From an uncultured archaeon (GTDB taxonomy: Archaea; Iainarchaeota; Iainarchaeia; Iainarchaeales; CSSED10-239), in NCBI GenBank assembly GCA_964496765.1, contig CAZCAP010000002.1:33694-97693 (forward strand): 64,000 nucleotides of DNA, read 5' to 3'. The position numbers and the translations under genes are program-made. Of the stretch, positions 31,238 through 59,945 are shown piece by piece; position 1 is the first letter of the stretch; each line of letters starts with the position of its first letter. The notes beneath the pieces are model-generated. The model saw nothing but the letters and a program-made list of their open reading frames with translations. It did not search any database and had not been told where the DNA came from.

Positions 31238-31852
31238 CTAAATATTATATTTCACTTTTAATTTATTATAGATTTCATAAAATTTTTGCAAATTATTCGA
31301 ATGTTTATAGCTTTCACTAAACCAGTTTGTATCTATTATTTTTTTCATAACATTTATCATAAGATTAATATAGTTTAGATTTAAATTATCTTTAGATAAA
31401 ATTAAATTAACCTCATCAAAAAGCTTAGTAGAGATATTTTCGTTATTGATTATTTTACAATCATTTATGTGAATTTCAATTGCTTTTATTATACTTTCTT
31501 CATCCACATCAATAAAATCTTTTTTATATTCAACACTCCAATTACCTTTGTTTTTCCAATTATGTGTTGGATTTTTACCAGTTTCAAAATATTCTATTAA
31601 TTCATTTTCACACCCAATAGGTAAAATTAATGAATTTTTACCTGATTTTATATAGGGTAGACTAGATATTACCCCATTTCTAAAATAATTATATATTTTG
31701 TTGTTTTTTTTAGTTACATTTTGGGTATATCCATATATAGATCTAAATACCTTTTGATATAAATATGATGAGTGGGCAGTATTTTCTATAAAAGAAAATT
31801 TATATTTAATTAGCACTGATCTAATTTTTGTCATATAAGAGACACCCCACAC
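31238..31852 (-). CDS. Hypothetical protein
   Basis: 204 aa ORF. The true start is possibly MTKIRSV. No recognised motifs. Confidence 0.4.
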   Translation of the reverse strand: MWGVSYMTKIRSVLIKYKFSFIENTAHSSYLYQKVFRSIYGYTQNVTKKNNKIYNYFRNGVISSLPYIKSGKNSLILPIGCENELIEYFETGKNPTHNWKNKGNWSVEYKKDFIDVDEESIIKAIEIHINDCKIINNENISTKLFDEVNLILSKDNLNLNYINLMINVMKKIIDTNWFSESYKHSNNLQKFYEIYNKLKVKYNI

Positions 31853-31940
31853 TTCCTGTATTGTGTATAATTAATAAATAAATAGTTGTTATGTATATAA
31901 TAATATATATATATAAAAGATAAAAAAAGAAGATAAAATC

Positions 31941-32315
31941 TTATCTTCTATGTGTTGATGCTGTTGAATATTTACTTCTATATCCTATATATTTTTTTCT
32001 AATATGTGCATCTTTTGAATTTTCTTGCTCTTCTTCTACTTCAGAAGCTGCAATTTTAGGTTTGTGTGTTGTTGGAACATTACCTGCATTAATTAAGATA
32101 ATATCATCAACAGAGATTACTTTATTATAAGGTATACTATGATCTGTTATTATCTTTTTAGCTTCAACCTTTGAATTAACCTTTAATGGTTGTGTTGTTA
32201 TTGTTTCAATAACACCTTGCTCTAAGTTAACTATGAGGTCATGTACCTTTCCCCTATATGTTGCATCTGTTTGATATAAATCCATACCAAATAGTTTTGA
32301 AATTCTTGTAGTCAT
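31941..32315 (-). CDS. PRC-barrel-like domain protein
   Basis: 124 aa. MTTRISKLFGMDLYQTDATYRGKVHDLIVNLEQGVIETITTQ parallels the PRC-barrel protein at 11844..12107. Confidence 0.45.
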   Translation of the reverse strand: MTTRISKLFGMDLYQTDATYRGKVHDLIVNLEQGVIETITTQPLKVNSKVEAKKIITDHSIPYNKVISVDDIILINAGNVPTTHKPKIAASEVEEEQENSKDAHIRKKYIGYRSKYSTASTHRR

Positions 32316-32519
32316 TTTTATTCCTCCAATTTAATATTATTAATTTGTATATTTGATGTAGTATGAAATATTTTTAAACATATTTATTTTATTTATTGGT
32401 ATTTTTTGTGATTTTTGTTTGATTATCAAAAAAATAGTGTTTTTTGTGTTGTTTTCTGCTTTTTCTGTGGCTTTTTGTATTAAAATGAATTAAAAATATT
32501 AGAGGAATCGTGGGGTCTA

Positions 32520-32981
32520 TCTTTTACTTATCGTAAAATCCCTACTTATTTGTTTTTTAAGAGTATCAATTTTGTTGGTTATATTAGATATAGTGGATTT
32601 TATAATATCCACTCTTCTCCTATATTCTTCATACATTTTATATTCGTGTGTTCTTGTTGTACTTGTTTTAGAATTTGTGACTTGCTTATTTAATTGTTTT
32701 ATATATTTATCTAGTTTTATACTACTATCCTTTAATTTCTTACTTAATTCTAGCTTATATTGCCCTAATCTTATAATTGTTATGTTTGTTTCCTGTACGT
32801 GTTGCTTTATCCATCTTTTTTTAGACTGTATTTCATTTTTTGTGGTTGTTGCATCTATGTTTTTTTCTTCAAATAATTTTTCTGTTTTTGCTTTTATACT
32901 ATTAACCTTTCTATTAAAATTATTTCCCCCTAATTTAAATCTTATCGCTTTTAATGCTATAAATCCACCTTTTCTTAATAA
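32520..32981 (-). CDS. 153-codon stop-free frame (K-rich, coiled-coil-like) lacking a canonical start. It is in the same frame as the upstream recombinase gene and separated from it only by that gene's TAA stop.
   Basis: Reverse-strand translation reads ...DNI* LLRKGGFIALKAIRFKLGGNNFNRKVNSIKAKTEKLFEEKNIDATTTKNEIQSKKRWIKQHVQ...YKMYEEYRRRVDIIKSTISNITNKIDTLKKQISRDFTISKR*. The only ATG is 37 codons from the end. A 150-codon open frame is improbable by chance in AT-rich DNA. Confidence 0.3.
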
Positions 32982-33842
32982 TTATATATTGTCCAACGGG
33001 TTTTTAATTTCTTTTAATTTATTAGTGTTTACTTTTGTGTATATTTGTGTAGTATTAAGATTAGCATGTCCTAATAATTGTTGTATATATCTTATGTTTA
33101 CATCATTTTCTAAAAGCGCGGTTGCAAACGAGTGCCTTAGCTTGTGTGGACTAACCGCTTTATTAATTCCTGCTTTTTTTGCAGATATTTTTAAAAATTT
33201 TTGAACCGTATCTGGAGATAATGTGGATCCCTCTTGATTACAAAATAAGTATTCTGATTTTTGTTTTTTCTCTCTTTCTTCTAAATATTTTTTATAATCA
33301 ACAACCCAATTTTTAGATAGTATTATTATTCTATCTTTATTTCCTTTACCAGAAACCACTTTTCCTGTATGCTCATTAAAATCAAGATCACTTATTTTCA
33401 TATTTATACATTCTGATATTCTAACTCCTGTTGAAAACATAAATTCTATAATTAGTTTATTTCTTTGGCTGCTTGTTGCATTAATTAGATCTTTGATTTC
33501 CTTTGGGGTTAGGGTAATTGGTATTTTATTTGATTTTTTAGGGAGCTTTATATTTAGCTCAAGTGGAGTCCTTAGAAATTCAGAATAAAAATGTTTAAGT
33601 GCAGATAATATTAGGTTAAGGGTAGCAGAACTAACTCCTTTTTTTGATTTAAGTTGTGATAAAAAATTAACAACATCATCTGATTTAACCTCTCTTAGAT
33701 CTTTTTCAATGTATTTTTGAAATATTCCTAGATACATAGAATACGTTTTTATTGTTTGCTCACTAAATCCCTCTATGTTTAATTCATTTTTGAATTTCGT
33801 TATTAATTCTTCGTTTTTAGTATTTACTTCCATAAATTTCAA
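32982..33842 (-). CDS. xerA: Tyrosine site-specific recombinase, XerA/XerC-D family
   Basis: The N-terminal core-binding domain reads FSEQTIKTYSMYLGIFQKY. The catalytic region contains HKLRHSFATALLENDVNIRYIQQLLGHANLNTTQIYTKV, the R..H..R...Y tyrosine recombinase motif. The likely real start is the ATG at 33833, since the ORF track start is TTG at 33842. Confidence 0.8.
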   Translation of the reverse strand: MKFMEVNTKNEELITKFKNELNIEGFSEQTIKTYSMYLGIFQKYIEKDLREVKSDDVVNFLSQLKSKKGVSSATLNLILSALKHFYSEFLRTPLELNIKLPKKSNKIPITLTPKEIKDLINATSSQRNKLIIEFMFSTGVRISECINMKISDLDFNEHTGKVVSGKGNKDRIIILSKNWVVDYKKYLEEREKKQKSEYLFCNQEGSTLSPDTVQKFLKISAKKAGINKAVSPHKLRHSFATALLENDVNIRYIQQLLGHANLNTTQIYTKVNTNKLKEIKNPLDNI

Positions 33843-58855: not shown

Positions 58856-59275
58856 TTGTTTTATATATTCTTGATTATGAATAAACTTATCTCTGATTGG
58901 AGTATATATCTTGATGTTCTAGAATCAATAATGGAATTTTCAAAGAGTTTTTATCCTCTTGAGTTCTCTGGAATTTTATATTGTGATCTTGAAAAAAAGA
59001 TTATAAAAGATATTTACATTCTTCCTGGAACTCAGAGTGGGAGAACAAGTGCGGTGCTGCGAATGGACCTTGCACCCATGACCTTTAATCTAGCTGGATC
59101 TGTTCATTCTCATCCATTAGGGTATGGAGAAGCATCTAATGCAGATTTAAACTTTTTCTCAAGCAAGCAGGTAAATATAATCGCCTATCCTCCATTTTCT
59201 CTAAATTCCTATAGGGTTTATAATAAACAAGGAAAAATTATTGAGTTACTAGTGATTTCTAGACCAAAAACGTGA
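58856..59275 (+). CDS. JAMM/MPN+ domain metalloprotease-like protein
   Basis: 139 aa. The JAMM motif is E...HSHPLGYGEASNAD (H-x-H-x7-S-x2-D) with the upstream Glu (LEFSG). Confidence 0.6.
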   Translation: MFYIFLIMNKLISDWSIYLDVLESIMEFSKSFYPLEFSGILYCDLEKKIIKDIYILPGTQSGRTSAVLRMDLAPMTFNLAGSVHSHPLGYGEASNADLNFFSSKQVNIIAYPPFSLNSYRVYNKQGKIIELLVISRPKT

Positions 59276-59423
59276 TTTAGTAGATAGTTTTATAAACGTT
59301 TCCGGAAAGGGTTTTATTTCTTTTGGAAGATATATTAATTTAGTTGTAGGGTCATTATTTATTTTTAATAAAAATAGTTTTGATTTTCTTAGAATTAGAT
59401 TAAATTTTATTACAGCTATTAGT

Positions 59424-59945
59424 GTGGATATTATGGATGAAACAAAAAAACAAGAAGAAAAAGAAGAAATTGTTGAACAAACAATAGACCAGAAAGAGGA
59501 TGTGGTTGAGTCCCTAACCAAAAAAATACAGGATTCCTTGGAACAGCTAAAAAGAACACAGGCTGACTTTATTAATTACAAAGCCAGGGTTCTAAAGGAC
59601 ACACAAGATCTTGTATTTTTACAAACAAAAGAAATTGCTCTGGAGTTAATTGCATTTAAAGAATTAGTATTAATTTCAATGAAGAATGAGGAACATGATG
59701 AAACAAAAAAAGTACTTTCTTTATTACTTGAAAAAATAGATAATTCTTTATCAAGATTAAATATAACTAAGATTATTTTGAAGGATAATATTCCAGATTA
59801 TAATCTTTGCGAGTGCATAAATACAATCAATGTAACTAATAAGGAAGATAATAACAAAATAATAGAAATAATCGAAGATGGATACTTATACAATAAAAAA
59901 TTAATTAAACCTATAAAAGTAGTTATAGGTAAATTGGAGGAATAA
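59424..59945 (+). CDS. grpE: Nucleotide exchange factor GrpE
   Basis: 173 aa. The ADFINYKARV motif matches the GrpE signature ADFENYRKR. It lies immediately upstream of dnaK. Confidence 0.8.
   Translation: MDIMDETKKQEEKEEIVEQTIDQKEDVVESLTKKIQDSLEQLKRTQADFINYKARVLKDTQDLVFLQTKEIALELIAFKELVLISMKNEEHDETKKVLSLLLEKIDNSLSRLNITKIILKDNIPDYNLCECINTINVTNKEDNNKIIEIIEDGYLYNKKLIKPIKVVIGKLEE

What the first reader, a model, noticed from the sequence alone, without database searches (positions are those of the whole stretch)
32520..33842. Recombinase gene and a 153-codon stop-free frame lie in the same reading frame separated by a single TAA
On the minus strand the XerA-like gene ends ...NPLDNI-TAA. The very next codon begins a 153-codon open frame (LLRKGGFIALKAIRFKLGG...ISRDFTISKR*) with protein-like, K-rich coiled-coil composition. 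That frame has no ATG, GTG or TTG near its 5' end, and the first ATG is 37 codons before the stop.

A 150-codon open frame is very unlikely by chance in roughly 28% GC DNA. Three explanations are possible. Stop-codon readthrough could produce a recombinase with a C-terminal extension. The frame could be a recently inactivated gene or the relic of a fusion. Or a downstream gene could initiate at a non-canonical codon.

Other genes in the window terminate normally at TAA, so a reassigned genetic code is unlikely.
Basis: seen in the sequence. Interest (0 to 1): 0.6.

Follow-up and report, generated by a model that had tools for sequence, protein, structure and literature searches.

The report
Missed small gene with ATA start
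The long open frame after the recombinase gene is a separate small gene, found next to the same recombinase in related archaea, whose ATG start has mutated to ATA here; it is not a read-through extension, so the finding is largely ordinary.

Summary
XerA (minus strand, ATG 33833 to TAA 32982-32984) is followed in phase by 154 stop-free codons ending at TAG 32517-32519. The first ATG/GTG/TTG in that frame is codon 116. Chance is excluded (P about 1e-7), and six independent assemblies carry identical sequence, so assembly error is excluded too.

The frame is not an extension of XerA. XerA is complete, and none of the 120 listed homologues is fused. The frame belongs to a small family of 147-166 aa helical-hairpin proteins of unknown function. 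In seven other archaeal lineages this gene lies 15-21 nt downstream of xerA. All seven start with ATG behind a GGTGA-type ribosome-binding site. Three are out of phase with xerA and one has three intervening stops.

In the window the homologous start position is ATA (32958-32960), and the ribosome-binding site is kept (GGTGG, 32965-32969). So the ATG became ATA and gene callers missed the gene.

Whether it is still translated weakly from ATA (about 0.5) or is a very young start-loss pseudogene (about 0.37) cannot be decided without expression data or closer relatives. Read-through is effectively refuted.

In passing, I found a conserved inverted 20-nt motif pair flanking the adjacent PRC-barrel gene. 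It is unexplained.

The parts
32982..33833 (-). xerA, an archaeal tyrosine recombinase of 283 aa, including its TAA stop at 32982-32984
   Evidence: It matches Pfam Phage_integrase at 9.6e-50 plus the SAM-like N-terminal domains. It matches NCBIfam NF040815 recomb_XerA_Arch at 279 bits (cut-off 220), covering model positions 2-262 of 263. Homologues end at the same ...NPLDN(I/M) position.
32961..32981 (-). 21-nt intergenic spacer TTATTAAGAAAAGGTGGATTT, containing a Shine-Dalgarno-like GGTGG (32965-32969) 4 nt upstream of the ATA
   Evidence: Sequence. The homologous spacers in relatives carry AAAGGTGATTTT-ATG. GGTG/GGAGG-type motifs lie at -16..-4 of 13 of 49 genes in the window, against 1.2 expected; the background rate is 2.4% of 13-nt windows.
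32958..32960 (-). ATA codon at the position where all seven relatives have the ATG start codon
   Evidence: Junction alignments, and the protein alignments.
32517..32960 (-). Small gene of 147 codons plus TAG stop. It encodes a K-rich helical-hairpin protein of a family always found just downstream of xerA. Gene callers do not annotate it.
   Evidence: phmmer against 1.84 billion representatives found homologues P0001, P0003 and P0005 (E 4e-16 to 6e-6). A profile search found P0007-P0010. The codon-model score in this frame is +1.17, against a mean of 0.93 for real genes. The AlphaFold model has pLDDT 81, with helices at 12-96 and 105-146.
32517..32636 (-). The only piece that gene callers report: a 39-aa ORF from the internal ATG, which is the C-terminal helix of the family protein
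   Evidence: It was called in L001 and L003 but not in L002, L004 or L005, although the DNA is identical. It is present in the protein collection as P0002.
32496..32516 (-). Copy A (degenerate) of a conserved motif ACCCC(N2-4)ACTTCCTGTATT, which marks the 3' end of the xerA(-ORF) unit
   Evidence: The motif directly follows the xerA stop in loci that lack the ORF (L008-L014). It directly follows the ORF stop in loci that have it.
31843..31862 (+). Copy B of the same motif in inverted orientation. It overlaps the ribosome-binding site (GGGGTG) of the 198/204-aa gene, and together with copy A it brackets the PRC-barrel gene (31941-32315, minus strand).

Best explanation
Shown: the stop-free frame is a separate small gene, not part of xerA. 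It belongs to a family of 147-166 aa helical-hairpin proteins. In a clade of AT-rich, uncultured (probably DPANN) archaea, this gene sits 15-21 nt downstream of xerA and is normally translated from its own ATG behind a GGTGA-type Shine-Dalgarno site. In this organism the ATG has become ATA (32958-32960). The Shine-Dalgarno site (GGTGG, 4 nt upstream) and all 147 codons are intact. Being in phase with xerA is a 1-in-3 coincidence.

Inferred: xerA and the small gene are co-transcribed. The ribosome binds the retained Shine-Dalgarno site de novo. Initiator tRNA pairs with the near-cognate AUA, giving the full-length protein at a low level, on the order of a few percent of an AUG start.

The protein's function is unknown. 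Its fixed position next to xerA suggests, without proof, a role connected with XerA or with the neighbouring PRC-barrel (cell-division-type) gene.
For: XerA is complete:
- The NF040815 model is covered at positions 2-262 of 263.
- The protein ends where its homologues end.
- The 120 best Xer homologues are 209-334 aa long. None approaches the roughly 437 aa expected of a fusion.

The downstream frame is a gene family:
- Homologues were found by phmmer and by a profile search.
- In every locus they lie directly downstream of xerA: L007/L026, L027, L029, L023/L024, L030/L031, L033-L035, L021/L022 and L025.
- All of them start with ATG. The gaps to the xerA stop are 18, 19, 21, 19, 15 and 19 nt, so three lineages are out of phase. 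L021 has three stops between the two genes.
- The ATA aligns with those ATGs, and the N-terminal motif R-KLG-N-FN-K is conserved right up to it.

The ribosome-binding site is retained and is of the type this genome uses.

The family is under purifying selection, with dN/dS 0.12-0.22 among L007, L027, L030 and L023.

The window copy looks like a working gene:
- Its codon-usage score is as good as that of real genes.
- It folds confidently as a helical hairpin.
- About 5-6% of substitutions would create a stop. The chance of the frame staying open is 0.06 after 10% neutral divergence and 0.004 after 20%.

Literature:
- AUA supports initiation at 1-2% of AUG in E. coli (bioRxiv 10.1101/063800).
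- A gap of about 20 nt abolishes termination-reinitiation, so initiation must be de novo at the Shine-Dalgarno site (PMC10666635).
Against: - There is no expression evidence of any kind.
- AUA is a poor initiator, and I found no archaeal data on it.
- This is the only gene of about 57 in the window without a canonical start, so ATA starts are not a habit of this organism.
- The gene is dispensable in the clade: it is absent from L008-L014.
- All six assemblies come from one near-clonal population. The ATG-to-ATA change could therefore be very recent, and the intact frame simply not yet decayed.
- The window copy is only 34-35% identical to the copies in genomes whose XerA is 87-88% identical. 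dN/dS on its own branch is saturated and uninformative.
Confidence: 0.5

Rival explanations
1. Young start-loss pseudogene. This is the same separate gene, but the ATG-to-ATA mutation has silenced it. The frame is still open only because too little time has passed for stops or frameshifts to arise.
For: - The canonical start is lost relative to all seven relatives.
- AUA initiates at only 1-2% of AUG in E. coli.
- The gene is accessory, being absent from L008-L014.
- The sampled population is near-clonal, so the change may be recent.
- No other gene in the window uses a non-canonical start.
- The window copy is unusually divergent, at 34-35% identity against 64-72% among equally related genomes.
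Against: - There is no second lesion in 147 codons, although 5-6% of substitutions would create a stop.
- The Shine-Dalgarno motif is retained.
- Codon usage and the predicted fold are intact.
- Residues invariant across the family are retained.
- The large divergence from relatives must have accumulated while the frame was under selection. Neutral divergence of 20% leaves only a 0.4% chance of an open frame.
Confidence: 0.37
2. Only the 39-aa ORF from the internal ATG (32634-32636) is translated, giving a truncated C-terminal helix.
For: It is the only canonical start in the frame. Some gene callers report it, and it is held as P0002 in public collections.
Against: - No Shine-Dalgarno-like motif precedes it; the upstream sequence is cacacgaatataaaATG.
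- It corresponds to the last helix of a larger conserved protein.
- Callers disagree on identical DNA.
Confidence: 0.06
3. Programmed or leaky read-through of the xerA TAA produces XerA with a 154-residue C-terminal extension.
For: In the window the two frames are in phase, with a single TAA between them. The same is true in L007 and L030.
Against: - The phase is not conserved. L023/L024, L025 and L033 have 19-nt gaps and are out of phase, and L021 has three stops.
- Every relative has its own ATG and Shine-Dalgarno site.
- XerA is complete without the extension.
- None of the 120 listed homologues is longer than 334 aa.
- The 7 codons after the TAA are the ribosome-binding spacer, not conserved coding sequence.
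- From general knowledge, TAA is the least leaky stop.
Confidence: 0.03
4. The open frame is a chance run, a shadow of codon bias on the other strand, or a sequencing or assembly error at the TAA or the ATA.
For: Long antisense open frames do occur in this A-rich coding DNA. One example is the plus-strand frame 32503-33204, with 233 codons.
Against: - P is about 1e-7, and 0 of 200,000 shuffles stayed open.
- No gene lies on the opposite strand of 32520-32960.
- Homologues exist in seven lineages.
- Six independent assemblies are identical.
Confidence: 0.01

Closest known systems
Genes with near-cognate start codons (own knowledge: E. coli infC and pcnB use AUU; AUA, AUU, AUC and CUG measured at 1-2% of AUG in E. 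coli, bioRxiv 10.1101/063800)
   Same: It is an otherwise normal gene with a well-placed Shine-Dalgarno site and an AUN codon where AUG is expected. Standard gene finders miss such genes.
   Different: Here the near-cognate codon is not conserved, because all relatives have ATG. There is therefore no sign of a selected regulatory role like infC autoregulation. The organism is an archaeon, and translation from the ATA is untested.
Start-codon-loss pseudogenes (early gene decay in reduced genomes)
   Same: There is a single point change in the start codon of a dispensable, lineage-specific gene, in a small, AT-rich genome.
   Different: There is no second lesion. The ribosome-binding site, codon usage and predicted fold are all intact.
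Programmed stop-codon read-through or recoding (own knowledge: UAG-pyrrolysine and UGA-selenocysteine in archaea; leaky stops in viruses)
   Same: Two open frames lie in phase, separated by one stop codon.
   Different: The phase is not conserved across orthologues. The downstream frame has its own start signals. The stop is TAA. The upstream protein is complete.
Archaeal XerA/dif chromosome-dimer resolution system (PMC2958812; PMC3646895)
   Same: The upstream gene is a bona fide XerA by the NCBIfam equivalog model.
   Different: Described XerA acts on dif without protein partners, and dif is not next to xerA. A conserved small coiled-coil gene directly downstream of xerA has not, to my knowledge, been described. 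The nearby 20-nt motif pair does not have the 11-6-11 dif architecture.

Membership tests
Programmed stop-codon read-through (C-terminally extended XerA) | The downstream frame is in phase with the upstream gene in orthologues, with a single stop between them | tested here: not met
   The gaps are 19 nt, and so out of phase, in L023/L024, L025 and L033. L021 has three in-frame stops.
Programmed stop-codon read-through (C-terminally extended XerA) | Fused or longer orthologues exist, or the upstream protein is incomplete without the extension | tested here: not met
   The top 120 Xer homologues are 209-334 aa long. The NF040815 model is covered at positions 2-262 of 263.
Programmed stop-codon read-through (C-terminally extended XerA) | Peptides or ribosome footprints cross the stop codon | not testable with these tools
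   No proteomic or ribosome-profiling data were available.
Independent gene with a near-cognate (AUA) start codon | Orthologues are separate genes whose start codon aligns with the candidate codon | tested here: met
   Seven lineages have ATG at the position of ATA 32958-32960.
Independent gene with a near-cognate (AUA) start codon | A ribosome-binding site lies at functional spacing | tested here: met
   GGTGG lies 4 nt upstream of the ATA. The same motif class precedes 13 of 49 genes, against 1.2 expected.
Independent gene with a near-cognate (AUA) start codon | The sequence shows a coding signature and purifying selection | tested here: inconclusive
   For the family, dN/dS is 0.12-0.22. 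The window copy has a gene-like codon score and an intact frame. dN/dS on its own branch is saturated because there is no close relative.
Independent gene with a near-cognate (AUA) start codon | Translation actually begins at the AUA | not testable with these tools
   This needs N-terminal proteomics, ribosome profiling or a reporter assay.
Start-loss pseudogene | The canonical start codon is lost relative to orthologues | tested here: met
   ATA in the window against ATG in relatives.
Start-loss pseudogene | Further disabling lesions or neutral evolution | tested here: not met
   There are no stops or frameshifts in 147 codons, and residues invariant across the family are retained. This does not exclude a very recent loss.
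XerA (archaeal Xer tyrosine recombinase), for the upstream gene | The score exceeds the curated cut-off of the equivalog model, and both the SAM-like N-terminal domain and the catalytic domain are present | tested here: met
   NF040815 scores 279 bits against a cut-off of 220. PF00589 matches at 9.6e-50, and PF13495 and PF02899 also match. The HxxR box (HKLRH) and the C-terminal Tyr (QIYTK) are visible in the sequence.
dif site (Xer recombination site), for the 20-nt motif | Two 11-bp inverted arms around a 6-bp spacer, in a single copy per chromosome (PMC2958812) | tested here: not met
   The motif has no consistent internal 11-6-11 palindrome. It occurs as two inverted copies 650-780 bp apart.

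The most novel reading that the evidence does not exclude
The most novel reading has two parts. First, the small helical-hairpin protein is a lineage-specific partner of XerA. It would link dimer resolution to the adjacent PRC-barrel (division-type) gene, whose segment is bracketed by a conserved inverted 20-nt motif pair that acts as a protein-binding or recombination site. Second, in this organism the partner gene is kept at a deliberately low level by natural AUA initiation, which would be a documented near-cognate start in a DPANN archaeon.
Probability: 0.1. Interest if true: 0.55.

Novelty: new member of a known kind. Interest (0 to 1): 0.25.

Why it matters
The main value is for annotation. 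Because it lacks ATG, GTG and TTG, a real gene that is conserved in related archaea is missing from the predicted proteins of this organism; only a 39-aa fragment is on record. Its in-phase position could also be mistaken for recoding.

If the ATA is used, this would be a natural near-cognate start in an uncultured archaeon. If it is not used, this is a snapshot of the first step of gene loss in a reduced genome.

The by-products may deserve a specialist's look. One is an uncharacterised coiled-coil gene family tied to xerA. The other is the inverted motif pair around the PRC-barrel gene. Neither is yet a discovery.

Tried and rejected
**Searches for homologues of the 154-aa frame**
- The word-indexed protein search found nothing. 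The relatives share too few exact 5-mers with the query. The exhaustive phmmer search was needed.
- A tblastn-type scan of GTDB species representatives found nothing.
- A scan of viral contigs found nothing.
- P0004 (1123 aa) is a low-complexity repeat protein, and I discarded it.

**Closer relatives**
- The XerA 90% cluster has one member. All six assemblies are at least 99.97% identical. No within-species polymorphism or branch-specific dN/dS could therefore be obtained.

**Function**
- Pfam, NCBIfam, PHROGs, the PDB sequence profile search and Foldseek against PDB gave only generic coiled-coil or helical-hairpin noise. There was no Foldseek hit at E <= 0.001. The best hits (E 0.14-0.6) included Vipp1/PspA, Rad50 hook, prefoldin and axonemal proteins.
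- The extra 185-aa coiled-coil ORF in L007 is not a paralogue (hhalign probability 0.1%).

**RNA elements**
- Rfam found no match in 32200-33100.
- No intrinsic-terminator-like site was found.

**A second non-canonical start in the window**
- The open frame 59256-59432 upstream of grpE is chance. The gene starts at ATG 59433.

**Long-range RNA pairing of the two motif copies**
- Within-genome complementarity (22.4) is not above between-genome complementarity (21.5 +/- 1.8). Co-variation is therefore unsupported, though the motif varies too little for a strong test.

**dif identity of the motif**
- Rejected on architecture.

Full report
**1. The observation**

On the minus strand the recombinase ORF ends ...NPLDNI followed by TAA (32982-32984). 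The next codon opens 154 sense codons (32981-32520), closed by TAG at 32517-32519. No ATG, GTG or TTG occurs before codon 116 (ATG 32634-32636), which heads the 39-aa ORF that the ORF lister reports.

- With the local base composition, the chance of 154 open codons is about 1e-7. None of 200,000 shuffles stayed open.
- Among all stop-to-stop runs of at least 120 codons in the window, this is the only non-antisense run without a canonical start near its 5' end.
- The similar-looking stretch upstream of grpE (59256-59432) is chance, because that gene begins at ATG 59433.
- TAA, TGA and TAG all terminate other genes, so the code is standard.

**2. Not an artefact**

An exact look-up of the recombinase protein returned contigs from six samples in ENA, Logan and JGI. 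The stretch from the xerA 3' end to the next gene is identical in five of those contigs and the window. All six carry the same 80-nt junction, with TAA and ATA, and are 99.97-100% identical to the window over 3.5-21 kb. The sequence is therefore correct. The drawback is that all samples hold one near-clonal population, so there is no informative polymorphism.

**3. The upstream gene is a complete XerA**

It matches Pfam Phage_integrase (9.6e-50) with the SAM-like N-terminal domains. It also matches the NCBIfam equivalog NF040815 recomb_XerA_Arch at 279 bits (cut-off 220), covering model positions 2-262 of 263. Relatives end at the same ...NPLDN(I/M) position, give or take 0-4 residues. The 120 best homologues are 209-334 aa long, whereas a fusion would be about 437 aa.

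**4. The downstream frame is its own gene**

The word-indexed protein search and a scan of GTDB representatives with the frame found nothing. An exhaustive phmmer search of 1.84 billion representatives did find three real homologues of 147-166 aa: P0001, P0003 and P0005 (E 4e-16 to 6e-6). It also found the window's own 39-aa fragment, P0002. A profile search added P0007-P0010.

Looking downstream of the closest XerA genes (82-88% identical) and at the contigs encoding these proteins gave the same picture every time. The homologue lies directly after xerA and begins with ATG. In most loci it is preceded by AAAGGTGATTTT or a similar Shine-Dalgarno motif.

The gap between the xerA stop and that ATG, by locus:

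| Locus | Gap (nt) |
|---|---|
| L007 | 18 |
| L023/L024 | 19 |
| L030 | 21 |
| L033 | 19 |
| L021/L022 | 15 |
| L025 | 19 |

Three lineages are therefore out of phase with xerA. In L021 three stops separate the two frames. The in-phase arrangement in the window (21 nt) is a coincidence with odds of about one in three.

In more distant relatives (XerA 70-74% identical, L008-L014) the gene is absent. There xerA is followed directly by a conserved motif and then the PRC-barrel gene.

**5. What happened in the window**

The window spacer is TTATTAAGAAAAGGTGGATTT followed by ATA GCA TTA AAA. It aligns with ...TTTATAAAAGGTGATTTT ATG GGA CTT GGA in L007. The protein alignments run from that codon onward, with a conserved N-terminal R-KLG-N-FN-K motif. 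By parsimony (seven ATG, one ATA), the start codon changed from ATG to ATA in this lineage.

The Shine-Dalgarno core GGTGG (32965-32969) is retained 4 nt upstream of the ATA. GGTG/GGAGG-type motifs precede 13 of 49 genes in the window, where 1.2 are expected by chance. Only 2.4% of random 13-nt windows contain one.

**6. Is the window copy alive?**

Evidence for:
- The frame has no lesion, although 5-6% of point substitutions would create a stop. Simulated neutral evolution leaves it open with probability 0.26 at 5% divergence, 0.06 at 10% and 0.004 at 20%.
- Its codon-usage score in frame (+1.17 over the best alternative frame) equals or exceeds that of confident genes, which average 0.93 with SD 0.17.
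- Family-invariant residues are kept.
- AlphaFold gives a confident helical hairpin: pLDDT 81, helices at 12-96 and 105-146.
- The family itself is under purifying selection, with dN/dS 0.12-0.22 among L007, L027, L030 and L023.

Evidence against:
- AUA initiates at only 1-2% of AUG in E. coli (10.1101/063800).
- No other gene here lacks a canonical start.
- The gene is dispensable in the wider clade.
- The window copy is only 34-35% identical to the copies in genomes whose XerA is 87-88% and PRC-barrel protein 90-93% identical. Those other genomes share 64-72% identity with each other for this protein.
- The window copy resembles the short-C-terminus subtype of P0001 and P0005, so it may be a different allele type rather than a decayed one. 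Its own-branch dN/dS is saturated.

Termination-reinitiation from xerA is unlikely, because gaps of about 20 nt abolish it in both Haloferax and E. coli (PMC10666635). Any translation must therefore start de novo at the Shine-Dalgarno site.

My estimates are 0.5 for weak but real AUA initiation and 0.37 for a very young start-loss pseudogene. The remainder is shared between translation of the 39-aa tail only, read-through, and artefact.

**7. What the protein is**

No Pfam, NCBIfam or PHROG family reaches significance, nor does any PDB sequence. Foldseek against PDB gives only generic helical hairpins, with best E 0.14: Vipp1/PspA, Rad50 hook, prefoldin and axonemal proteins. The function is unknown. 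The only functional clue is the invariant position immediately downstream of xerA in eight lineages, next to a PRC-barrel gene. From general knowledge, PRC-barrel proteins have been tied to archaeal cell division. A role as a XerA-associated or division-associated coiled-coil factor is a guess, not a result.

**8. Comparison with known systems**

As a mechanism, this is either a near-cognate start gene or a start-loss pseudogene; both kinds are known. The read-through criteria that could be tested here were not met. The upstream gene is a member of XerA. Described XerA systems need no partner, and dif is not adjacent to xerA (PMC2958812).

**9. Noticed in passing**

A 20-nt motif, ACCCC(N2-4)ACTTCCTGTATT, directly follows the xerA stop where the ORF is absent, or the ORF stop where it is present. 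A second, inverted copy lies just upstream of the 198/204-aa gene, overlapping its GGGGTG ribosome-binding site. The two copies thus bracket the PRC-barrel gene at 650-780 bp apart in at least nine lineages. In some relatives extra small ORFs lie inside the bracket.

All lineages show the same orientation, so there is no sign of inversion. Within-genome complementarity of the two copies is no higher than between genomes. The motif lacks dif architecture. It remains unexplained.

**10. Verdict**

The explanation is ordinary: a missed, separate small gene with an ATG-to-ATA start-codon change. Interest is low to moderate.

Noticed in passing
window 32496-32516 (minus strand) and 31843-31862 (plus strand); also L009, L010, L011, L013, L014, L030, L033, L007: A conserved motif of about 20 nt, ACCCC(N2-4)ACTTCCTGTATT, occurs as an inverted pair bracketing the PRC-barrel gene. 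Copy A directly follows the xerA stop, or the small-ORF stop where that ORF is present. Copy B overlaps the GGGGTG ribosome-binding site of the 198/204-aa gene. It lacks dif-like architecture, no inversion was seen in any lineage, and there is no excess within-genome complementarity.
   Followed up: partly
L007 4298-4855; L030 5506-5718 and 5836-6063: Between motif copy A and the PRC-barrel gene, some relatives carry extra small ORFs that the window lacks. L007 has a 185-aa coiled-coil ORF, and L030 has ORFs of 70 and 75 aa. The bracketed segment therefore has variable content. The 185-aa ORF is not a paralogue of the xerA-adjacent family.
   Followed up: partly
window 32520-32960 versus L007, L030, L023: The small protein is only 34-35% identical between genomes whose XerA (87-88%), PRC-barrel protein (90-93%) and HD protein (66-71%) are far more similar. 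The other three genomes share 64-72% identity with each other for it. This means either very fast evolution on this branch or a distinct allele type, namely the short C-terminus form seen in P0001 and P0005.
   Followed up: partly
window 32503-33204 (plus strand): A 233-codon stop-free frame lies antisense to the small gene and the 3' end of xerA. It is F/L/I/S/C-rich and has a lower codon score than real genes. I take it to be a shadow of the A-rich coding strand, not a gene.
   Followed up: partly
window 31834-31852 (minus strand); L001 versus L002, L004, L005: Gene callers disagree on identical DNA. The gene after the PRC-barrel gene is called as 204 aa (GTG 31852) or 198 aa (ATG 31834). 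The 39-aa fragment of the small gene is called in some assemblies only. The relatives' spacing of GGGGG to ATG favours the ATG 31834 start.
   Followed up: partly
window 59256-59432 (plus strand): The 56 open codons without a canonical start upstream of grpE looked like a second case of a missing start. The gene simply begins at ATG 59433 (MDETKK...), and the upstream stretch is chance.
   Followed up: yes
L021 1-750: In this 1.9-kb JGI contig the xerA gene is cut to its last 81 codons. It abuts bacterial-looking genes (sigma-70 region 4, CopG-like antitoxin). This is probably a chimeric or rearranged contig. The xerA tail plus small-gene junction is confirmed by an independent Logan contig, L022.
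   Followed up: no
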